DNA of 64,000 bases, from IMG/VR virus record IMGVR_UViG_3300009031_000368, positions 96,001 to 160,000 of that record; one strand, given 5' to 3'. Each line of letters begins with the position of its first letter. Position 1 is the first letter of the stretch. Of this stretch, positions 39,628 through 61,292 are shown piece by piece. This DNA comes from a virus (taxonomy: Duplodnaviria; Caudoviricetes). Under the pieces are notes generated by a model. That model searched no databases. It was not told the origin of the DNA and worked only from the letters and a program-made list of their open reading frames with translations. The translations under genes and the position numbers were made by a program.

Positions 39628-40874
39628 TTCCTTGAATTACTAAAATCAACAGCAATACGTGACTGACTCTGCTTTTGCTTAAGAGAATCTAGTGAATCTA
39701 TGATATCTGTCATGGCCGATTGTCTGTACACGGACAACATCTTCACGTCTGCTAATGATTCATAGCTGTAGTAAAAACACAAGAATTGTTCGGTAGCCAA
39801 TTTGGTTTCTAATGCAATTGGTGAATGATGTATATGAAATCGCCATGGACCATAAGTAACGATTCTGTACAAAGAATACGAACTGGGCATTCTACTCATT
39901 TTGCTAAAATTTACCGTTCCACCTACTGCATACGTTTTAAACCGTGATGAGGGCAAGTCGGCAGCCATTGTTGCGCCTACAAAATCATAGTCGGCATCTG
40001 TCATGGTGAAGTACCTCCATTTTTAATCATGACGCACCGAATGGAACCAAACAGCATTTTGCTTCTGGCGCGACAAAACATCCTTGTTTGGCGTCAATGA
40101 CTCAATGATATCATCCATTGCAGACAATTTTAATATAGAAAATCCAGACTCCACATCTGCCACAGGTTCATAGTTATAGTAAAAGCCAAGGAACTTCCGT
40201 GTGGCAAGTTGTACGGTCATCGTCGATGTTGCGCTTTGTTTTACGTAGAAACGCCATGGCCCATACGTAATGGTTCTTGCCGCATAGTCGTTACTTGTTT
40301 GACCACTTTGCGGTGGCGGCGCCAGGTAGATATCGACTTTGCCAAAATGCACGGTGCCACATCTACCCGGTCGTTTAAACGCAACAATTGGATGTCCATT
40401 AAGTGTTGCCTCGATAAAATCTTCTTCAGTCATATGTTACCATACCTTCATTGCTTTGATTATTCCCGCCAACATGGATTGTTCATCCTCGATGCTGCAT
40501 CTCCTTTTACCAAGGAGTTTTTGATAATGTTCATGTACGGTCGTCAATACTTTGCTGATTACCGCATAGGTGTCATCATCAAATGATTCAAGTTCCAATA
40601 ACCTGTATCGATACGGATATCCGAACAATTGCCTTGTTGCGACCCAAACTTCAATTGTAACATCCCACGCAATTTGATCATTTACAAGTGGCTTCCTTGT
40701 ATTCATATTGGCATATAGAACGATTTGAAGCTTATTGACACAAATTGTTGTACTGGTTACCAACTTTGAAGCAATGACATCAATATCGCCGATCCGGCAA
40801 TATTCGGTGCCGACTTCGTCAATCAACATATAGACGGCATGCGCCTTATCCAGGATAGATTTCATGTCAACCAT
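39621..40874 (-). CDS. Tandem paralogous hypothetical proteins (39621..40004, 40023..40433, 40437..40874)
   Basis: Shared TYGPWRF...LAT..FL.FYY.YE..AD...SAM.DII.SL in the first two; weaker VATRQLFGY in the third. Confidence 0.6.
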
Positions 40875-42253
40875 CAGCCTTCAGCCTCCTCAGTATCAAT
40901 ATAGTCATCCTTCTGCTTGATGATTCCTTCAAGCACGCGAAAAATATAGCTTTTTTCTTTGTAGAACGAAACGGTTCCGTCCGGTTGTTCGACTCTGATG
41001 ACGACTCCTTCGTGTGGATGCCTGGCGTCTAGACCAGATGGGATTGCATCGGTTCCAGATTCACCATTGACCAATCGTTCTACCTTTGCTCGAAGCGCCT
41101 CCTCGTTGCCATCATACATAAACGATTCAATATGACGCACCGTTTCAACACCAAGCTCGCCGGATCGGCCGACAACCTGATACCATGAAAGATCAACCTC
41201 ATTACCGTCTTCAGCAACACGGGTGATGCGGTAAACCGTTAGCCTGGTTTGTGGCCCATTGGTGCCATCTGAACTACAGCCATAACTGTACTCAAAACAT
41301 TTACCAAACCGCTTTTCAATCTTCTTATCCTTCAATCCAGTGGTGTCATGACGGCCCATAATCGGCGCACCGGTATCGGTGTAACCGCAAAGCTCATAGT
41401 AGATGGCTTCGCCGGGATGAAGCGTTATATCTTTTACCGCATTGAATCGGAAGTTCTCGGTGCCGTAATACGAATTACCGGTTCGCCGTTCCAACACGAC
41501 GCGACGGCTACCATTCAGATATCGCCACGGATTGCGCTCAACTGATAACCCAACACGCCGTAACAGCCAATCACAACAACCGGCCAGACGTTTACGCCAG
41601 CCTGAAAGTTGAACAAGATCACGAACTTGTGCGGTACGCCCAGAAGTACCATGAAGCTTCTCGGTAATATGGATGATTGAACCAACCGGAATCTTGCTGG
41701 CGAAATACCTGAACTGTTGTGTTTCAATGTGTTCATGAAACATGACATTCTTTTTACGTGCAACCGGAGTAGACGCTGACTTCTTTGCACGCACGGTTGC
41801 CGGTGTTTCATATTTGGTGCAAACCACATGACCGTTCACGGTATCGATTAGATCTCCTTCTTTGAAGGAAGAAATATCACAGCCAGTCCAATCAAGCATT
41901 TCGACCGGACACCAAAAGCCATCCGATTTTACACCTTTCAGCTTAATGGCACGCACACGGCGGTTTGGTTCAAACATGCCACCGGCCGGCTTTCCGGTTT
42001 CATCTTTCCGTTTAACCAGATCCTTATTGGATGCAAAGGTTTCAGACAGGACACCATCACTGGGGAAGAATACGCCCAGTGTGCCATCCTGTGTTTCCTT
42101 GCCGACAATCACTTGATTGCCAAGACAATTCCCGATGGCCAACCGCTCAATCTTTTCGACAGAGCCATCCGGTTTAACGATATCCGGGAATGGACGTACA
42201 TGGATACTTGTTACGATTGCTTGATACATAACGGACTCCTTAATTACCACCAA
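40874..42253 (-). CDS. RNA ligase (DRB0094/Rnl2-like, N-terminal OB domain)
   Basis: Motif I TEKLHGT, EAIYYELCG, HEGVVIR (motif IV), KEKSYIF (motif V), N-terminal LKGVKSDG. Confidence 0.88.
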   Translation of the reverse strand: MVVIKESVMYQAIVTSIHVRPFPDIVKPDGSVEKIERLAIGNCLGNQVIVGKETQDGTLGVFFPSDGVLSETFASNKDLVKRKDETGKPAGGMFEPNRRVRAIKLKGVKSDGFWCPVEMLDWTGCDISSFKEGDLIDTVNGHVVCTKYETPATVRAKKSASTPVARKKNVMFHEHIETQQFRYFASKIPVGSIIHITEKLHGTSGRTAQVRDLVQLSGWRKRLAGCCDWLLRRVGLSVERNPWRYLNGSRRVVLERRTGNSYYGTENFRFNAVKDITLHPGEAIYYELCGYTDTGAPIMGRHDTTGLKDKKIEKRFGKCFEYSYGCSSDGTNGPQTRLTVYRITRVAEDGNEVDLSWYQVVGRSGELGVETVRHIESFMYDGNEEALRAKVERLVNGESGTDAIPSGLDARHPHEGVVIRVEQPDGTVSFYKEKSYIFRVLEGIIKQKDDYIDTEEAEG

Positions 42254-45568: not shown

Positions 45569-46549
45569 TCAATGTGTGTAATGCGCTAGGATTGAATCGC
45601 TGTAGATTGATTCAACGTATTGCGTCCACCGTTCTAGATCGATTGAGCGCTGAAGCTTAGATGTCTGATGCGCGGCCAGAACACGATCCAATCGCTCTTC
45701 AATAAATACCTGAACTGTTTCATAACTGAAACAACCTGTTCTAATCTGTTTCAGCCATTCACAATTAGGCCGTGGCAGCGTGATGTGACCAGTAGTTAAC
45801 AGTTCTTCTGCTTCATCGGCAATCCGGACAGCATGCATCAACGCTTTGTAGTCGACACCATCATTGGTTAGAGTCTTTTTCGCCCGATCGCCGTATTGGT
45901 TCAACACTCTGTCATAGATCTTAAATGCTTCCTGCACGCTGAAATGAACCGGGCACTTCCTGCCGCAAACTTCAAGATGAATGATGGTATTGCCATGGTC
46001 CATCGTTATTGGAACAAGTTTGATGTCTTCATTCTGTGCCTCTAACACAAATCTTACAACCGGTGTCTCTTCAAGCTTAATGTGTTTATCTTGATCTCTA
46101 AGAAATTCAACAGTAAGCTGTGCGGCGGCAACCCGATTGCCCTTCACACAATACTTAGCGGCTTGAGTCTTACAGTAGCCTACAAATGCCGATGTGCCGG
46201 AATGAATCAAATCATTGCGATGTTCGGCGATAAATTCCCATTCCGGCGATGTAGTGGTCCAGGCATCTCGTGGAGCAAACAACATTTCAACCGCATTGGT
46301 TTGACCATCTTTCAACAGTACGGTCAAAAAGCTTTGTAGCGTAAACAGTTCAATGTCGGTATCGGTAGATGTATTTTTACCAGCCGATGATTTTGAACCG
46401 ACATTGATCGATGTCCGTGGCGCATTCTGCAACACCAAGTCTTTCGGCGATGGTACAAAAATGCCCTTGTAATCGGTATCTGATTCAGGAAGGTTGGTCC
46501 CGTAAAGCCGCGAACCAAAGATGGTTTGGAATAGGATCTTCATAATCAA
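45569..46549 (-). CDS. Pol-beta-like nucleotidyltransferase (RlaP/YcgL-like)
   Basis: FGSRLYGTNLPESDTDYKGIF (GS...DxD), NAVEMLF, KALMHAVR. Confidence 0.85.
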   Translation of the reverse strand: MIMKILFQTIFGSRLYGTNLPESDTDYKGIFVPSPKDLVLQNAPRTSINVGSKSSAGKNTSTDTDIELFTLQSFLTVLLKDGQTNAVEMLFAPRDAWTTTSPEWEFIAEHRNDLIHSGTSAFVGYCKTQAAKYCVKGNRVAAAQLTVEFLRDQDKHIKLEETPVVRFVLEAQNEDIKLVPITMDHGNTIIHLEVCGRKCPVHFSVQEAFKIYDRVLNQYGDRAKKTLTNDGVDYKALMHAVRIADEAEELLTTGHITLPRPNCEWLKQIRTGCFSYETVQVFIEERLDRVLAAHQTSKLQRSIDLERWTQYVESIYSDSILAHYTH

Positions 46550-52691: not shown

Positions 52692-54416
52692 TTAATGGTG
52701 TCAAGATCCCGCTGGATGTTTTTTAGCATTTCGCGGACAATCCTCTCAGCGTGAACACATGTTCCCATCTCTGCGCGTGTGGAAGTAACCGTTGTGCTAA
52801 ATCCCCAAACGAACACGCCAAATTCTTCATCGTAATAAAGTGTTATGTTTACAACACATCGATTATTGGCAGCGAGACCAACGATCTTTTCATTATCTTC
52901 TATATCCCAATCCATGTATGGATAATTCTTTGCAAGTTCATGCAATGAATCCTTCAATAGTTGGATCCGTCGTTGTTCAATGTTTATTGACGCGATATCA
53001 AACCCGTTATCCACCATCCATCGGTGAGCCGTGTCATCGGTTTCGGCTGATTTGCTGACAAGTTCAAACATTTGCTGAATTTGCTGCTCGGTGAAACTAT
53101 TCATCGTTTGCTTTCTCCACAATCATCCAGTCGCCATAGTCGACCGACATATCATCTGATAGAAATTCAATTCGGCCATCACATCGGGCACACTGCCCAC
53201 GATATCTTCGCCATCCATTAAAAATCATCAGCATTTCGTGTTGATGTCCGTTCCAGCCACATTTTTTACATGACACCTTCCTTGACTTCACATATGGGCA
53301 AGGTGTCCACACTTCATTCCATTCAAATTTCGGTTTGACGGTTTGCAGGTATGTGGTTAGACGAATCCTGGCAGCCGACCAACATTCCCGGCATACCGAG
53401 ACGCCGCTTCTAGTCCTGTACTTTTCAACCGGCATGGTTTCTTTAACCAACCCTTTGCGCGGGCCTGATTTAAATAGAACGTCCTTTGGCTGTACGCCGC
53501 ATTGCATACAACCAGTTTCTGATTTGAATGTTCTAACTTGATCCAGCTCACCTATCGTCAGAGCTTCATTGACCAATACCGATAAGAATACGCCAATATG
53601 GTCAGTGCCGAGCACCAATCGTAATTGTCTCTCTTCCTTGATCCGGGCTATCTTTGCCATGGCATCCGATGAATCAGTGATGCCATCTAGCTTCAATAGC
53701 TGGTCTTCGGTAAAGTCAACAAACATAATATTTACTCGGCGGCAAGAATGATGTTCAGATCAGGAGTCGGAGTCGAAGCGGTGGGAGTATCAAGAATCAG
53801 CTCAACGGTAGCTTCATCGGTAACTGATGGTCCGTCATCGGAATCAATCAGCTGATGGACGTAACTGCCAACCATGATAACGATAACGGCAACAACAAGC
53901 ATAACACGAAACAACATAACGTTTTCTCCTATAGGCCAATACCGGCCATGTAAATTTTATGACTATCGGAATCAATCTCCATGACTCCAACAGTCGCCAC
54001 ACAATCGATGGCTGATGCCACAATATATGGCAGAGTCTTTACGACAAAGTGCCGCTCAAATTCATTAGGCAATGTGATCGACACAATCGATCCAACTGGA
54101 GGAATCGCATCAATGGTTGGAGCGGAAATATCCCGCACACCAACACTATTCCAAGTCCGGAATTGAATCTTCATAGTCCATAACCCTTGATAAGATAACT
54201 GTACAATCCCGCGTTACTGGATGAAACGACAGTAACCGCATGACGGATTGCTGTGTCGTTATCCCAGTCGTCGCCGACAATCCGCGCAATTTCGTCATAC
54301 AGCCTGATCAACTCGACACGGGTAATCAGCATATCGCCTCCGCCATCGAAATCTAGCCATATGATATCACATTGAGTATTTTTGTCAATATCTTTTTCTG
54401 AATTGACTTCAATCAT
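52688..54416 (-). CDS. Hypothetical proteins (52688..53122, 53097..53726 Zn-finger, 53732..53917, 53929..54174, 54171..54416)
   Basis: Co-oriented small ORFs; several CxxC pairs in 53097..53726. Confidence 0.55.
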
Positions 54417-56056
54417 ACTTGTAGGACGCCGTAACGGTACGCGGCTGAAACGATTTTTTGTCCAAGCGCCGACAGCCCCGACTGTAATTCTCCATATAGC
54501 GGATTATCGGCGATGATATCCCGTATTTGATACAGGCTGGCATTCCATGCACGATGATGACTTTTATCGGTTCGCAACGATGCGGTTGATACGACAAGAC
54601 GGGTAGCGATGTTCAACAGCCGTTCAGCGTCTGCGCCAAGCTGATAACGTTTTAGCATATGTGCCGCATGGCAATACATATGAGATTCTCGCGCAGTCAT
54701 GTTGATACAACATCTTGGCGTATTGTCAATGATATATTGTGGATCTAGCCAAAAGAAGTGATTGTAGTAGAATGGGCCTTCTGAAATAATTTGGTTATCT
54801 GGATGTAGCGCGGAAAACACGATGCAATCTGAAACAAATTGTTTCATTTTATGTGACGTATACTTTGTAACATTGATCCGTTGATTGAAATTTATGGCAG
54901 TAAGGCTTACCGATTTACCTACCGCAAAGCAAACGGCAGACTGTATGAAGTTAGCGGATGTAATGAGAAATGGCGATCCGCCACGATAGTCATCGCTCGA
55001 CGGGCCATTTATTGCGAAAGATTGGACGTTCCCAATGGTTGCTTCGACATTGGAGTTATGTGAAAATTTGGCAAGTGGCGGCCCACTACCACTCCAACCA
55101 TAAGGAATAGTCCTATCACTATAAAGTAATTCCTTACTCCTGAATCCTATCGTGTTACCTGAAGCTTCATCTATCACTGGAACCAATAGGCTTTTGCTTT
55201 TCTCAAAACTATAATCATGACAGGCAAACAATACATACTGCTCGCCTGATGGTGTAACGATAATCCGTTCAGGTGAACAGTAATTGGTTATCGTGAGATG
55301 TATAACAGGCAGCGGTGCCGCCAAAACGATACAACTATCGGCAATCCGTAGCCCGTAGTCTCTATACATATCGGACAATGACTTCATTGTGCCGACAGTA
55401 TAGCGTATCAACAATACAGTTGGCCTATTGGCCGATATGATCTGTGCCAAGTTTGAATCTGTTACCGTTCCATCTATAACAACTACTTCACGGTCATTGC
55501 TCCATCCAGGCATAACGCCATTCAGGTATTGCTCCATTACACGACTGGCACCATCGGTAACGCAATGCTCCGGATAACGGCCAGGCCGGTAGCCGACATT
55601 AAAACAGGAGGAAGATGCCATCTGGTTTATTGTCGTTACAGCATCACAGTAACTTAAAGGCGTGAATTCAAAATCAGATAAAGCGTCTATCAGGCTATGG
55701 TCAGGCGTAGAAGCAGCCTTCTTCCAGTCATAACGTTCAAACAGGTGATGTATGATGTCACCCGTATCTACCACATAGCAGGATTCTCGATCGGCCAACA
55801 GGATGACGTTAGGCGCATCGTAACCATTAAAGATGAGATTTCTGACATAGTGGACTGTTTGAGCCAATGCGCGGGGCCTTGATTGCCTGTTGCGGCGACT
55901 GAACTGAAGTTTAAATTCCATCAATAATCGCAAATCACCAACAACACCATAGCCATCGGTCCCAACCGGTGATGTAATGATGATACCTGGGAAGCTCTTC
56001 TGAAGTTCTGACTTATAAAAAGCTTCAACGTCTTTTTCATTTGTCGCAGTGAGCAT
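54413..56056 (-). CDS. Restriction-modification-like protein: N-terminal PD-(D/E)xK nuclease, degenerate methyltransferase region
   Basis: GTDGYG...LLMEFK...LAQTVHY nuclease-like core; C-terminal NHFFW and WNASLYQIR; no recognisable FxGxG or NPPY. Confidence 0.5.
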   Translation of the reverse strand: MLTATNEKDVEAFYKSELQKSFPGIIITSPVGTDGYGVVGDLRLLMEFKLQFSRRNRQSRPRALAQTVHYVRNLIFNGYDAPNVILLADRESCYVVDTGDIIHHLFERYDWKKAASTPDHSLIDALSDFEFTPLSYCDAVTTINQMASSSCFNVGYRPGRYPEHCVTDGASRVMEQYLNGVMPGWSNDREVVVIDGTVTDSNLAQIISANRPTVLLIRYTVGTMKSLSDMYRDYGLRIADSCIVLAAPLPVIHLTITNYCSPERIIVTPSGEQYVLFACHDYSFEKSKSLLVPVIDEASGNTIGFRSKELLYSDRTIPYGWSGSGPPLAKFSHNSNVEATIGNVQSFAINGPSSDDYRGGSPFLITSANFIQSAVCFAVGKSVSLTAINFNQRINVTKYTSHKMKQFVSDCIVFSALHPDNQIISEGPFYYNHFFWLDPQYIIDNTPRCCINMTARESHMYCHAAHMLKRYQLGADAERLLNIATRLVVSTASLRTDKSHHRAWNASLYQIRDIIADNPLYGELQSGLSALGQKIVSAAYRYGVLQV

Positions 56057-58010
56057 AAATTAGATACCCAATTCTATCAATATCTAAATCAGAACTAATT
56101 TTACCCGTCGCCATCGTATTGTTCCCGCCGCTTTTAGCAGTTATAACCTTCAACAGTTGAATGGCCGGATATCGTTCTGACAGTTCGGCCGATACTGATA
56201 TAACTATTTGTTGGCCATATTTCAGCACAACAATACATGGTCCGAAACGATCACGGAGTCTATCGGTTTGAAGTCGCATTTCTTCAACAGTGTTAAGTAT
56301 TGTATCGGATGCAATTATCAGCACATCAGACGATAGATTATAGAAACTATGTGAATCAGATTCCATATTAAAATCTGCCGCGACTCTTTTATACTCAATC
56401 AGCTGTCGTTCAAGGCTCTGGCACTTCTCCTTCAAATCCTTAACAGCTGTAACGGGATCACTGCCAAGCTCTTTCCGCAGCAATGTCATGATACAACTAT
56501 ATTGTTGCATGATGTTAAACGCATCGTCGCCGGCCACATATTTGAACCATCTCGCATATGGGCCACTTGAACCATAATCCAAAACTTTTACATGATGGCT
56601 GGTTTCAAACTTACTGATGATATCATCATCCACAGGCTTGTAGTGTTGAAACGTAGTCGTATATACGTTCATACCATCTGTTGATTCAAAATCATCAGAG
56701 ATGATAATGGCATGATTGCCAAAACTGTCTAATAATGCTGGTCCGATTGGACACATGCTGGTATCAACACATTGAACAACCGTTACGTGTTGAGTCTTGT
56801 CGATATCGCTTCTATCGGTAAAACGTTCAATGTTAACATCGGGCGCAATCAATTGCATGTCTTCACGATATATGCCGTATCTGTTTTTCAATTCCTTGAC
56901 GAACGTTTCATTAACTGTTTGACCGCCATTCCGTTTAACATATTCCAGATAGACCTTACTGCCACGATTCAGATTGCTCCAATAGAGATCTGTTTCAATG
57001 CCGAGCACATCAAAGATTGTTGTTTTATTCTCTTTCAACTTCGGATACACGTCAGACATCGTATCGATAACCGATTTGACTGGTGCCACAATATCATTCA
57101 ATCCAAGCAAGCCAGCATGCCTGATGGCGCGACGAATGATTTTCTTTACCACATGACCACGATCCTTTTCCGATGGGAAGACATACTCGGACAACAGGAA
57201 GACAATCGCGCGGCTATGGTCGGCAATGACACGAATCGATACATCACGATTTGGATCTATGCCATAATTGGCCGGGATTGATTCAATGATGGGAACAAAT
57301 AGATCGGTATCATAGTTGGATGTTTTACCTTGAAGCACAGACGCGACACGCTCCAACCCCATACCGGTATCAATATGTAGTCGGCCGGTGTCCTTCATGG
57401 TTCCATCCGGATCCATTACCTGTTGCATGAATACAATGTTCCAAATTTCAAGGTATCTGTTTGGCTCAACGATAGGATTAGTTCGTGGCAGATCCGGTGT
57501 TAGATCATAAAACACTTCAGTGCATGGACCGCATGGTCCACTATTACCCATTGTCCAAAAGTTATCTGAACACGGTGTAATGTTGCTATACCACACCAGA
57601 TCACTCCATACCCGATAGGCGTCAACATCTTGTGGATGTACGGTGATATGCAGTCTGGTTTTATCCACGCCGAGCCATCCCATCAGATGGTCAGCTTCCT
57701 CGATTACAGATACTTTTTCGTCTGTTGAAAACCTGAAGTTGCCCAGCATTTCAAAGAATGTATGGTGTCGTGGCGACTTGCCCACTTCTTCAAAATCGTT
57801 ATGCTTGCCTGATACCCGTAGGCACTTTTGGCATGTCGTTGCATTCCAGGGCTTTTGATTTCTTAGAAAATCAGGCTTAAATTGAACCATGCCGGAATTG
57901 GTAAAGAATAGCGTGTCATCATCGGGGACAATCAACGATGACGGACGCTGCCAATAGCCTTGCTGCTTAAAGAAATGCAGGAAGTTATTTCTGATATCTA
58001 TTGACTTCAT
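56037..58010 (-). CDS. alaS: Alanyl-tRNA synthetase, editing domain degenerate
   Basis: FFTNSGMVQFK, QKCLRVSGKHND, HHTFFEMLGNF, EIWNIVFMQ, IDTGMGLERV, VIADHSR, IIRRAIR; C-Ala KSGGNNTMATG; no HxxxH or CGGTH. Confidence 0.93.
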   Translation of the reverse strand: MKSIDIRNNFLHFFKQQGYWQRPSSLIVPDDDTLFFTNSGMVQFKPDFLRNQKPWNATTCQKCLRVSGKHNDFEEVGKSPRHHTFFEMLGNFRFSTDEKVSVIEEADHLMGWLGVDKTRLHITVHPQDVDAYRVWSDLVWYSNITPCSDNFWTMGNSGPCGPCTEVFYDLTPDLPRTNPIVEPNRYLEIWNIVFMQQVMDPDGTMKDTGRLHIDTGMGLERVASVLQGKTSNYDTDLFVPIIESIPANYGIDPNRDVSIRVIADHSRAIVFLLSEYVFPSEKDRGHVVKKIIRRAIRHAGLLGLNDIVAPVKSVIDTMSDVYPKLKENKTTIFDVLGIETDLYWSNLNRGSKVYLEYVKRNGGQTVNETFVKELKNRYGIYREDMQLIAPDVNIERFTDRSDIDKTQHVTVVQCVDTSMCPIGPALLDSFGNHAIIISDDFESTDGMNVYTTTFQHYKPVDDDIISKFETSHHVKVLDYGSSGPYARWFKYVAGDDAFNIMQQYSCIMTLLRKELGSDPVTAVKDLKEKCQSLERQLIEYKRVAADFNMESDSHSFYNLSSDVLIIASDTILNTVEEMRLQTDRLRDRFGPCIVVLKYGQQIVISVSAELSERYPAIQLLKVITAKSGGNNTMATGKISSDLDIDRIGYLIYAHCDK

Positions 58011-58203
58011 TTTACTCTCATCGAATAATCGCATGCCATATATTCAGCATCGTCTTTTGTCGTCAATGTGATGAACTAGCTAACCTCAGATGTCCAATAA
58101 TGATCGGTTGGTAAATCGTTATACCAAATCATCATCCCGCATCGTTCGCAACACCGACGCTCAGAGCCATAAGGTTGACCGTTTTGTGTCTTTAGATGTA
58201 AAA

Positions 58204-58644
58204 TTAACATACCAGGTTCACAAGATCCGAGAATCCGTATTCTTTAATCAGATTCTCGGTACACGCCATCAGTGGTTTCGGCCAATCCTCTAGATCATAA
58301 ATCTTGAACCAGCCAAATTCAGTAAATTTATCTGGTTCCATGATTCGAGCCTTGGTTGGATTAGTTACTACGGCAGTCATCCACACCGTTACATAATGCT
58401 TGCCTTCCGGCATGATGTCATTAACGGCTGTAAGAAAACTCACCGGTCCTAACTCGATGTCAAACTCTTCTTTTGACTCACGCCGGACACACTGTTTAAA
58501 CGATTCCCCATATTCCAGGTGACCACCTGGGAATGCCCATGTGCCGGATTGATGACTGCCGGTACGTTTACCCAATAGAATATAGCAATCACCGTCAAAA
58601 TGACTCATGGCAATAACCGCTGTTCCAACAAGTGGGCGATTCAT
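58204..58644 (-). CDS. Nudix hydrolase (MutT/NUDT15-like)
   Basis: Nudix box PGGHLEYGESFKQCVRRESKEE, IMEPDK. Confidence 0.9.
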   Translation of the reverse strand: MNRPLVGTAVIAMSHFDGDCYILLGKRTGSHQSGTWAFPGGHLEYGESFKQCVRRESKEEFDIELGPVSFLTAVNDIMPEGKHYVTVWMTAVVTNPTKARIMEPDKFTEFGWFKIYDLEDWPKPLMACTENLIKEYGFSDLVNLVC

Positions 58645-60548: not shown

Positions 60549-61292
60549 TTAAATTTCAATAGTTGCTTTAACGTTAAACTGCTTATTTTCTCCACGGTAC
60601 CCAAGCGGATTACGGACATGCCTGGTATTACCGATCACAACATCCATAGTGGAATGGCTGTGGCCGTGGATCCATACAGCCGGGCGCTTTCTAAAATCTT
60701 CGTGCAACATATCACACACGTAAAATCTGTTCAGTGGATTTCCACGAAAACAGTCATCTATCAATTGGTAGCCAGGCAAGTGATGAGTTACCATAACGTC
60801 AGCACCACAATGCCTGATGAAGTCAACAGACTTCTTGTTGGTTTCATATACCCATGGTACGAATCCTTGAATCAGTCTGAAGTCATTCATTTGAGACCGG
60901 TAACAAACGTTCAAGGGATCATCTCTGAACCACATCGTGGCACCGGCGATTGTGACGCCATCAATATCTATCGATGTGCAATCAAGTGCATGGTAGCCGG
61001 AGATTTCAGCCAATAGCACTGACATGTAATCAGCAACTACAGCTGGACTGGTTCCATAATAGGTGTGATTACCGGGTACTTCAATGACATGCTGGAATGT
61101 CTTACAAAGGATTTCGATATTCCGCCGATGAAATCCACCAACGGTGCCGTCTCGTTTAACAATTTCCGACATATCACCGGCAACAATCAATACATCGGCA
61201 GACTTGTTGCGGCAGATGGTGTTTACCCAGCTCAATCCCATGTCGGAATGAAAAAAGTCTAGGTGCAGATCACTTAGGTACTGAATTATCAC
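60549..61292 (-). CDS. Calcineurin-like metallophosphoesterase
   Basis: SDLHLD, AGDM, PGNHTYY, THHLP, WIHGHSH. Confidence 0.9.
   Translation of the reverse strand: MIIQYLSDLHLDFFHSDMGLSWVNTICRNKSADVLIVAGDMSEIVKRDGTVGGFHRRNIEILCKTFQHVIEVPGNHTYYGTSPAVVADYMSVLLAEISGYHALDCTSIDIDGVTIAGATMWFRDDPLNVCYRSQMNDFRLIQGFVPWVYETNKKSVDFIRHCGADVMVTHHLPGYQLIDDCFRGNPLNRFYVCDMLHEDFRKRPAVWIHGHSHSTMDVVIGNTRHVRNPLGYRGENKQFNVKATIEI

What the first reader, a model, noticed from the sequence alone, without database searches (positions are those of the whole stretch)
56037..58010. Phage alanyl-tRNA synthetase lacking a functional editing site
SEEN: catalytic motifs and the C-Ala domain are intact, but the protein is ~657 aa (bacterial AlaRS ~870). 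The editing region is shrunken, with no HxxxH or CGGTH zinc ligands; only the following GSSGPYARWFKYVAG segment is recognisable. KNOWN: AlaRS mis-activates Ser and Gly and relies on editing; aaRS genes are rare in phages. INFERENCE: backup charging when host AlaRS or tRNA-Ala is attacked, deliberate mistranslation, or Ap4A synthesis coupled to the adjacent Nudix gene.
Basis: partly seen in the sequence, partly recalled or inferred. Interest (0 to 1): 0.7.

Follow-up and report, generated by a model that had tools for sequence, protein, structure and literature searches.

The report
Phage alanyl-tRNA synthetase without proofreading site
An uncultured 232-kb groundwater phage carries its own alanine-loading enzyme for tRNA: the charging site is intact, the proofreading domain is reduced to a small shell with no catalytic residues, and the two residues that normally read the tRNA's identity mark are replaced. 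It is an unusual variant of the proofreading-free viral enzymes already described.

Summary
Window 56037-58010 (-) encodes a 657-aa AlaRS.

- **Charging half:** residues 9-403 are a bona fide aminoacylation plus tRNA-recognition module (Pfam E 8e-109). All nine checked Ala/ATP-site residues are kept.
- **Losses:** the beta-barrel and the zinc-binding core of the editing domain (HxxxH, CGGTH, Q584) are gone.
- **What remains:** a 74-residue shell of the editing fold (Z 8.7 to a solved AlaRS editing domain), two long helices, and a well-predicted C-Ala domain (Z 16.3, rmsd 1.9 A).
- **Not in the finding:** the G3:U70-reading residues are replaced (E. coli N303 to E, D400 to N, flanked by K and R). 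In E. coli, N303D and D400N nearly abolish charging.

Most likely it is an active AlaRS with no cis-editing that still charges host tRNA-Ala. The Tupanvirus mini-AlaRS also lacks N/D and editing, yet is G3:U70-specific. Other huge phages carry N-terminal-only AlaRS (434-469 aa), so loss of editing recurs in phages. This gene is the only copy I found that keeps C-Ala with a gutted editing domain, and its C-terminal half has no sequence relative among 1.84 billion representatives. The scan has already found editing-less AlaRS on other DNA (symbionts, Mollicutes, CPR). Nothing supports the Ap4A/Nudix or deliberate-mistranslation ideas.

The parts
56037..58010 (-). alaS-like CDS, 657 aa plus stop (residue numbers below count from the upstream ATG at 58034, so M9 = 58010)
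   Evidence: ORF list and translation; Pfam tRNA-synt_2c 13-402, E 8e-109; PDB AlaRS N-domains, E 1e-87
58011..58034 (-). possible 8-codon N-terminal extension (alternative ATG at 58034), probably not translated
   Evidence: No purine-rich site upstream of 58034, GAGAG upstream of 58010; homologues start at M9
57285..58010 (-). class II catalytic core (residues 9-250) with an intact Ala/ATP site
   Evidence: R73, K77, W160, E196, N199, V201, D222, G224, R229 all match the E. coli active-site residues
56826..57284 (-). tRNA-recognition helical domain (residues 251-403). G3:U70 readers replaced: E289 (57168-57170) for N303; K383-N384-R385 (56880-56888) for Y399-D400-T401
   Evidence: Alignments; roles of these residues from PMC6055181
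56751..56825 (-). about 25-residue predicted disordered linker (404-428), standing where the last helix of the N-domain and the roughly 110-residue beta-barrel lie in bacterial AlaRS
   Evidence: pLDDT below 50 at model residues 396-420; alignment gap; no barrel HMM hit
56529..56750 (-). remnant of the editing domain (429-502): alpha-beta-beta-alpha-beta-beta shell lacking HxxxH, CGGTH and Q584
   Evidence: AF2 pLDDT 83-91; VIA-align Z 8.7 to 2zze editing domain (75 aligned within chain 613-752), Z 8.2 AlaX-M, Z 7.7 AlaX-S; weak hhalign match on FQHYKP...ISKFE
56352..56528 (-). two long helices (503-561), equivalent to the helical (dimerisation) subdomain of prokaryotic C-Ala
   Evidence: AF2 helices at model residues 79-99 and 103-134; matches to 2zvf and 3wqy
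56040..56351 (-). globular C-Ala (DHHA1-like) domain (562-665)
   Evidence: Z 16.3, rmsd 1.9 A, 103 aligned to the Aquifex C-Ala domain 3g98; Foldseek 3g98 TMt 0.73; own HMM E 1e-9
58204..58644 (-). upstream neighbour: Nudix hydrolase (context only, no shown link)
   Evidence: Pfam NUDIX E 2.6e-18, intact Nudix box
54413..56056 (-). downstream neighbour overlapping the alaS end by 20 nt: 547-aa orphan protein (context only)
   Evidence: No Pfam, NCBIfam or PHROG hit; weak restriction-modification-like lead

Best explanation
This is a phage-encoded alanyl-tRNA synthetase of bacterial origin. It still activates alanine and transfers it to tRNA, but it cannot proofread. Shown: the Ala/ATP pocket is complete, the editing pocket (zinc ligands, Q584, about 60 residues) and the beta-barrel are deleted, and the helical and globular C-Ala parts are predicted to fold normally. 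Inferred: during infection it adds alanylation capacity for host tRNA-Ala, alongside the phage's own CCA-adding and RNA-repair enzymes. C-Ala would hold the tRNA elbow, and the editing-domain shell would survive only as a structural spacer between the charging module and the C-terminal part. It may also still touch the acceptor stem, because the hairpin it keeps corresponds to E. coli residues 680-699. Ser- or Gly-tRNA-Ala made by mistake would be left to host factors (host AlaRS acting in trans, AlaX, DTD) or simply tolerated during a short infection. The G3:U70 pair is probably still read, but by contacts other than the canonical Asn/Asp pair, as in the Tupanvirus enzyme.
For: N-terminal module: Pfam E 8e-109, TIGR00344 363 bits over 13-402, PDB AlaRS fragments E 1e-87. 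All nine checked active-site residues are kept. 99 of 137 positions that are at least 95% conserved in bacteria are kept. C-Ala: Z 16.3, rmsd 1.9 A. The C-terminal model has pLDDT 89.9. The gene is intact and near-identical in groundwater metagenomes of four studies; its 4 SNPs are 3 synonymous and 1 S-to-P change. Precedents: the Tupanvirus mini-AlaRS lacks editing, C-Ala and the N/D pair, yet is G3:U70-specific and rescues a yeast ALA1 knockout without serine toxicity (PMC10036535). E. coli C666A AlaRS charges tRNA-Ala and mischarges Gly (PMC13219725). Other huge phages carry N-terminal-only AlaRS with intact active sites. Context: a CCA-adding enzyme with an HD domain, an RNA ligase and RlaP lie on the same strand.
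Against: In E. coli AlaRS, N303D retains 1.2% and D400N roughly 4% of kcat/Km (PMC6055181). The phage has the analogous E and N, so charging of G3:U70 tRNA may be poor or redirected. The N-domain stops near E. coli residue 420, short of the 441/461 fragments known to be fully active, and the following stretch is predicted to be disordered. 38 of 137 highly conserved positions differ, including the SFGDYF block after motif 2. There are no relatives with this architecture, so selection on the C-terminal half cannot be measured. No expression or activity data exist.
Confidence: 0.6

Rival explanations
1. Retargeted synthetase. The E289/N384 pair (with K383 and R385) reads a 3:70 pair other than G:U. 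The enzyme then alanylates other host tRNAs or a phage RNA, for recoding, for mistranslation, or as an Ala donor for a non-ribosomal transferase.
For: Both G:U readers are replaced by residues with inverted hydrogen-bond character. N303D and D400N cripple G3:U70 charging, and N303A opens E. coli AlaRS to G3:C70 (PMC6055181). The double change occurs in none of about 140 bacterial sequences compared, only in this phage and in two other viral copies, L031 and L032. Human mitochondrial AlaRS has M/G at these positions and a tRNA without G3:U70. Phage Mom uses an aminoacyl-tRNA for DNA modification (PMC13219725).
Against: The Tupanvirus and C. elegans mitochondrial AlaRS also lack N/D but stay G3:U70-specific. 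No tRNA-Ala-like or other candidate RNA was found in the phage by ARAGORN or Rfam. The one odd tRNA-like gene has a UAU anticodon and C3:G70 and lies far away. No transferase partner was identified.
Confidence: 0.15
2. Catalytically silent tRNA-binding protein (pseudo-synthetase). It would shield or sequester tRNA-Ala or tmRNA, for example against a host nuclease, without charging.
For: C-Ala, the main tRNA-binding module, is kept while other parts decay. 28% of highly conserved N-domain positions are changed. RNA-repair genes lie nearby.
Against: Every checked residue of the Ala/ATP pocket is conserved, which is not expected without selection for adenylate formation.
Confidence: 0.12
3. A gene in decay. 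It is a horizontally acquired alaS slowly losing domains on the way to the N-terminal-only form, or to loss, with no present function for the C-terminal half.
For: Other huge phages have already reached the N-terminal-only state. The C-terminal half has no detectable sequence relative.
Against: There is no stop or frameshift in 657 codons. The remnant and C-Ala are predicted to fold with pLDDT about 90. The gene is identical across samples from several studies.
Confidence: 0.08
4. Ala-AMP or Ap4A producer working with the adjacent Nudix hydrolase.
For: The adenylate site is intact. A Nudix gene lies 169 nt upstream on the same strand.
Against: There is no operon-type coupling, as a spacer with a small ORF lies between them. 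The Nudix protein has only generic MutT-like matches below cut-off. No Nudix box lies within 3 kb of AlaRS in six other huge-phage loci. Keeping C-Ala makes little sense for a tRNA-independent role.
Confidence: 0.05

Closest known systems
Tupanvirus mini-AlaRS (TuAlaRS; Antika et al. 2023, PMC10036535)
   Same: It is virus-encoded, has no editing activity, and has the conserved N/D G3:U70 readers replaced (P/T there, E/N here). Its catalytic core is intact.
   Different: TuAlaRS ends after the tRNA-recognition domain. This protein keeps a gutted editing shell, the helical subdomain and globular C-Ala. It is of bacterial rather than eukaryotic type and comes from a phage rather than a giant virus. 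TuAlaRS activity is shown; this protein's is not.
N-terminal-only AlaRS of other huge phages (IMG/VR loci L019, L020-L022, L028, L031; found here, no description found in the literature searched)
   Same: They are phage-borne, editing-less, and have an intact active site.
   Different: They are 434-469 aa with a complete N-domain and no C-terminal parts. They share only 36-37% identity with this one, which suggests a separate, probably independent acquisition (no tree was built). Most keep N303/D400; L031 has A/T.
E. coli AlaRS editing-site mutants (C666A, C666A/Q584H)
   Same: Charging is intact and post-transfer editing is lost. Both mutated positions are absent or replaced here.
   Different: The mutants keep the whole domain, the zinc site geometry and the N303/D400 readers. 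Here about 170 residues are deleted.
Engineered AlaRS fragments 1-441 / 461N (PDB 3hxu) and the N. equitans split AlaRS-alpha
   Same: The charging module works without editing. AlaRS-alpha alone charges independently of G:U (PMC11392972).
   Different: This N-domain is about 20-40 residues shorter at its C-terminal end and is covalently joined to C-Ala.
small-AlaRS of CPR/DPANN (bioRxiv 10.1101/2023.05.29.542759; NCBIfam NF002436 type)
   Same: It is a shortened natural AlaRS that lacks the beta-barrel.
   Different: small-AlaRS keeps the editing domain and lacks C-Ala, which is the opposite pattern. The NF002436 score is 238 against a cut-off of 529.

Membership tests
Alanyl-tRNA synthetase (class IIc; Pfam PF01411, NCBIfam TIGR00344 alaS) | Class II catalytic core with AlaRS-specific Ala/ATP residues (E. 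coli R69, W170, N212, V214, D235, G237, motif-3 Arg) | tested here: met
   All are conserved; PF01411 E 8e-109
Alanyl-tRNA synthetase (class IIc; Pfam PF01411, NCBIfam TIGR00344 alaS) | Conserved Asn/Asp pair that reads G3:U70 (E. coli N303, D400) | tested here: not met
   E289 and N384 stand in their place. N is found in 139 and D in 144 of about 148 compared sequences.
Alanyl-tRNA synthetase (class IIc; Pfam PF01411, NCBIfam TIGR00344 alaS) | Full-length equivalog score (TIGR00344 cut-off 457 bits) | tested here: not met
   363 bits, covering only model positions 1-408 of 847
Alanyl-tRNA synthetase (class IIc; Pfam PF01411, NCBIfam TIGR00344 alaS) | Editing domain with HxxxH and CxxxH zinc site (tRNA_SAD) | tested here: not met
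   No PF07973 hit and no hit with my own editing HMM. The motifs are deleted or replaced in the alignments. Only a 74-residue shell of the fold remains.
Alanyl-tRNA synthetase (class IIc; Pfam PF01411, NCBIfam TIGR00344 alaS) | C-Ala domain (helical plus DHHA1-like globular part) | tested here: met
   Z 16.3, rmsd 1.9 A to 3g98; matches to 2zvf and 3wqy. Pfam DHHA1 did not reach threshold.
Alanyl-tRNA synthetase (class IIc; Pfam PF01411, NCBIfam TIGR00344 alaS) | Alanylation of tRNA-Ala | not testable with these tools
   This needs an enzyme assay.
Viral mini-AlaRS (TuAlaRS type) | Aminoacylation domain only: no editing domain and no C-Ala | tested here: not met
   The editing site is absent, but C-Ala and an editing-fold shell are present.
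small-AlaRS (catalytic + tRNA-recognition + editing; NF002436) | Functional editing domain directly after the tRNA-recognition domain, no C-Ala | tested here: not met
   NF002436 scores 238 bits against a cut-off of 529, matching the N-terminal part only. The architecture is the reverse.
AlaX free-standing editing proteins | Editing core with zinc ligands | tested here: not met
   The remnant aligns to AlaX-M and AlaX-S at Z 8.2 and 7.7 over only 73-77 residues, without the ligands. No AlaX-like ORF exists elsewhere in the genome.

The most novel reading that the evidence does not exclude
The paired replacement of the G3:U70 readers (Asn to Glu, Asp to Asn, flanked by new Lys and Arg), combined with deletion of the editing site, has re-aimed this synthetase. 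It would then put alanine on RNAs that do not carry G3:U70: other host tRNAs, or an unrecognised phage RNA. That would be a phage-driven change of tRNA identity rules, or a private alanine donor for a non-ribosomal reaction.
Probability: 0.12. Interest if true: 0.85.

Novelty: new variant of a known kind. Interest (0 to 1): 0.5.

Why it matters
AlaRS proofreading is usually described as nearly indispensable, and its four-domain layout as invariant. Viruses are emerging as the place where that rule breaks: the Tupanvirus mini-AlaRS, and here several huge phages. This gene is an architecture not described before. The editing pocket was removed in place, while the tRNA-elbow-binding C-Ala domain and a shell of the editing fold were kept. 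That separates the structural role of the editing domain from its catalytic role within a natural protein. It also carries, as natural changes, substitutions analogous to two that nearly abolish G3:U70 charging in E. coli AlaRS (N303D, D400N). It is therefore a ready-made test of how flexibly the G:U identity mark can be read, and of whether a phage can loosen or redirect tRNA identity during infection.

Tried and rejected
**Searches that found nothing**
- Megablast of the gene against GenBank phages: no match.
- tblastn against phages gave only N-terminal matches. Most were 'UNVERIFIED' records with full-length or small-AlaRS genes that look bacterial, so I did not use them as phage examples.
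- IMG/VR scans with the single protein, and with the neighbour P0002, found no relative.
- Exhaustive phmmer of residues 400-665 against 1.84 billion representatives found only the protein itself. Selection on the C-terminal half could therefore not be measured.

**Weak or negative tests**
- hhalign of the remnant against an editing-domain profile gave only probability 4%. The remnant reading rests on fold matches, position and consistent MAFFT placements.
- ARAGORN on the genome and Rfam on all 232 kb (E up to 1 for the window and the last 32 kb) found no tRNA or other RNA family.
- The alaS leader has no fold signal (z -1.06).
- The promoter and terminator scan was at chance level.
- I asked whether AUA might be read as Ala via the odd UAU tRNA-like gene. 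Only 3 ATA codons fall in alignable positions, so the test is uninformative and I dropped it.
- No RNA holder is listed among the sequencing runs.
- Contigs of four runs gave only 4 SNPs, too few for dN/dS.

**Limits and steps not taken**
- A possible cryptic metal site was considered (D424-x3-C428 lies in register with HxxxH; also H441, H464, H480, H481).
- I did not run complex prediction, because the report makes no binding claim.
Full report
**1. The gene**

On the minus strand an open frame runs over 56037-58034 (665 codons). The second ATG, at 58010, is the likely start. GAGAG lies 7 nt upstream of it, while nothing purine-rich precedes 58034. Homologues begin exactly at M9, and the public gene call is 657 aa. 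Residue numbers below count from 58034.

The window belongs to a single 231,714-bp virus record with 44% G+C. The same gene occurs, near-identical, in groundwater metagenomes from four studies. The only differences seen are three synonymous changes and one Ser156-to-Pro change.

**2. The N-terminal 400 residues are a real AlaRS charging module**

- Pfam tRNA-synt_2c covers 13-402 at E 8e-109.
- TIGR00344 scores 363 bits, but only over model positions 1-408 of 847, which is below the full-length cut-off of 457.
- The best solved relatives are AlaRS aminoacylation fragments (9jdn, 3hxu, 1riq; E 1e-84 to 1e-87).
- In an L-INS-i alignment with E. coli AlaRS and 35 bacterial sequences, every checked Ala/ATP-site residue is kept. 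R73, K77, W160, E196, N199, V201, D222, G224 and R229 correspond to E. coli R69, K73, W170, E209, N212, V214, D235, G237 and the motif-3 Arg.
- The nearest sequences are ordinary 870-aa bacterial AlaRS, 42-47% identical over the N-terminal 55-60%, several of them labelled Myxococcota or Desulfobacterota.
- The module is more diverged than bacterial AlaRS are from each other: median 42.6% identity against 55%.
- 38 of the 137 positions that are at least 95% conserved in bacteria are changed.

**3. What is missing**

Pfam finds neither tRNA_SAD nor DHHA1. HMMs that I built from the 35 bacterial sequences detect in this protein only the N-terminal module (9-403) and C-Ala (570-642, E 1e-9). They detect no barrel, editing core or coil, although the same HMMs find all five parts in E. 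coli AlaRS and in every full-length control.

The alignments show two large deletions:
- E. coli residues of about 425-562 (the last helix of the N-domain, the beta-barrel and the HxxxH helix start) are replaced by about 25 residues that AlphaFold predicts to be disordered (pLDDT below 50).
- About 60 residues containing the CGGTH motif are absent.

Q584, mutated in the classical C666A/Q584H editing-dead enzyme, is Ile444 here.

An ungapped extension of the alignment puts Asp424 and Cys428 in register with the two His of HxxxH. That stretch has low confidence, and the second half of the zinc site does not exist. I therefore regard a cryptic site as unlikely but not formally excluded.

The phage genome encodes no AlaX-like or other editing-domain ORF.

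**4. What remains of the C-terminal half**

An AlphaFold model of residues 425-665 has mean pLDDT 89.9. It shows three parts.

- **Editing-fold shell.** This is a 74-residue alpha-beta-beta-alpha-beta-beta unit (429-502). An exhaustive structural search aligns it to the editing domain of P. horikoshii AlaRS (2zze: Z 8.7, rmsd 1.9 A, 75 residues aligned within chain range 613-752). It also aligns to AlaX-M (9iuw, Z 8.2), AlaX-S (1v7o, Z 7.7) and the ThrRS editing domain (1tje, Z 6.4). In each case only about half of the target's core is matched. These Z values are middling by the tool's own calibration. The case for a remnant therefore also rests on its position in the chain, on the consistent MAFFT placement of PALLDSFGNH, FQHYKP...ISKFE and the final hairpin, on a weak hhalign match, and on language-model neighbours that are AlaRS C-terminal fragments.
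- **Two long helices** (503-561).
- **Globular C-Ala domain** (562-665). It matches the Aquifex C-Ala domain at Z 16.3, rmsd 1.9 A, 103 residues. Foldseek also hits full-length A. fulgidus AlaRS and its dimerisation domain.

The retained hairpin corresponds to E. coli residues of about 676-699. This overlaps the 680-699 segment reported to be the editing domain's own tRNA-Ala recognition element (PMC8583063).

By sequence the C-terminal 266 residues are an orphan. phmmer against 1.84 billion representatives returns only the protein itself.

**5. A point not in the finding: the G3:U70 readers are replaced**

E. coli Asn303 and Asp400 read U70 O4 and the G3 2-amino group. Tyr399, Asp400 and Gly403 are described as strictly conserved (PMC6055181). 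Here PSNENRGY is PSEKDRGH, and LYDTYGF is LKNRYGI. That gives N303 to E289, Y399 to K383, D400 to N384 and T401 to R385. Both regions are anchored by flanking invariant residues and align without gaps.

In E. coli, N303D retains 1.2% and D400N roughly 4% of kcat/Km, and N303A gains activity on G3:C70.

Among about 148 other AlaRS compared, position 303 is Asn in 139 and position 400 is Asp in 144. The double change occurs only here and in two other viral copies: L031 (A/T) and a giant-virus MAG, L032 (S/N).

This could mean altered tRNA choice. However, the characterised Tupanvirus mini-AlaRS has P/T at these positions and is still G3:U70-specific, as is C. elegans mitochondrial AlaRS (PMC10036535). 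I therefore treat retargeting as a minority reading.

**6. Other phages**

A pattern scan of IMG/VR found 43 AlaRS loci.
- Those on 20-50-kb contigs are full-length. They often lie at contig ends and probably come from host flanks.
- On large phage records the gene is N-terminal-only, at 434-469 aa. These are L019 (103 kb, terminal repeats), L020 (411 kb, 98% complete), L021, L022, L028 and L031. None has an editing or C-Ala ORF within 3 kb.
- Terminase genes confirm that three of these records are phages.
- Two contigs of about 200 kb carry only a roughly 300-aa core-like protein.
- These phage copies are 36-37% identical to the present one. This suggests separate acquisitions and independent loss of editing, although I built no tree to test it.

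Loss of editing is thus recurrent in phage AlaRS. The present architecture is the only one of its kind that I found.

Earlier notes of this scan report N-terminal-only AlaRS in symbionts, Mollicutes and CPR bacteria. I did not re-test those.

**7. Context**

All neighbours lie on the same strand:
- a Nudix hydrolase 169 nt upstream;
- a 547-aa orphan protein overlapping the 3' end by 20 nt;
- a metallophosphoesterase at 60549-61292;
- a 462-aa PolyA_pol-head plus HD-domain protein, which is CCA-adding-enzyme-like, from 62917 and running past the window end;
- an RNA ligase at 40874-42253 and RlaP at 45569-46549.

This gives an RNA- and tRNA-repair flavour, but no tight operon with alaS is shown. 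No tRNA is detectable in the genome by ARAGORN or Rfam. The one tRNA-like gene flagged earlier, at genome position about 207.7 kb, has a UAU anticodon and C3:G70.

**8. Verdict**

The most likely reading (0.6) is an active AlaRS with no cis-editing that supplements charging of host tRNA-Ala. In this reading the editing domain survives only as a structural shell, and C-Ala still grips the tRNA elbow.

| Rival | Confidence |
|---|---|
| Retargeted substrate | 0.15 |
| Non-catalytic tRNA binder | 0.12 |
| Gene in decay | 0.08 |
| Ap4A/Nudix coupling | 0.05 |

It is a new variant of a known kind (viral editing-less AlaRS). It offers two testable oddities: in-place gutting of the editing domain, and natural E/N substitutions at the G:U-reading positions.

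Noticed in passing
window 58076-58210 (-) and 58007-58075 (-): A 44-codon ORF starts at an ATG overlapping the Nudix stop codon (ATGTTAA). It contains CCxxC and ends at a TAG. The same frame then runs another 22 codons to a TGA that overlaps the alaS ATG (ATGA). I saw no evidence for readthrough, and the RNA fold is not significant (z -1.06).
   Followed up: partly
window 54413-56056 (-): A 547-aa orphan protein whose start overlaps the alaS stop region by 20 nt. It has no Pfam, NCBIfam or PHROG family. The only lead is a weak structural and feature resemblance to Eco57I/HsdM-type restriction-modification proteins and DUF7149 (TM 0.35, score 0.78).
   Followed up: partly
window 62917-64000 and beyond (L058:417-1805, -): A 462-aa protein with a PolyA_pol head and an HD domain, resembling a class II CCA-adding enzyme with phosphohydrolase, lies about 5 kb upstream of alaS. 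On the same strand are an RNA ligase (40874-42253), RlaP (45569-46549) and a metallophosphoesterase (60549-61292).
   Followed up: partly
L019:2208-3509, L020:2941-4332 (= L021, L022), L028:397-1803, L031:2977-4350: Huge-phage records (103-411 kb; L028 lies on a 25-kb fragment) encode N-terminal-only AlaRS of 434-469 aa with intact active sites and no editing or C-Ala ORF nearby. I found no description of phage copies in the papers searched.
   Followed up: partly
L041:2875-3816 and L042:2914-3825: Two IMG/VR contigs of about 200 kb carry a roughly 300-aa protein that matches only parts of the AlaRS catalytic core (E 1e-14 to 1e-16). It may be a further-reduced AlaRS-like paralogue.
   Followed up: no
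L031:2977-4350 and L032:2912-4333: Two other viral AlaRS also lack the N303/D400 pair: A/T in a 171-kb phage contig and S/N in a giant-virus MAG. Replacement of the G:U readers may therefore be a viral trend.
   Followed up: partly
proteins P0005, P0014, P0018, P0033, P0096: Several full-length bacterial AlaRS among the closest hits have Lys at the position of E. coli Asn303, which the literature calls universally conserved.
   Followed up: no
ARAGORN does not find it, nor does Rfam at E up to 1. A T-loop scan shows it is the only such element in the genome. Its 3:70 pair is C:G.
   Followed up: partly
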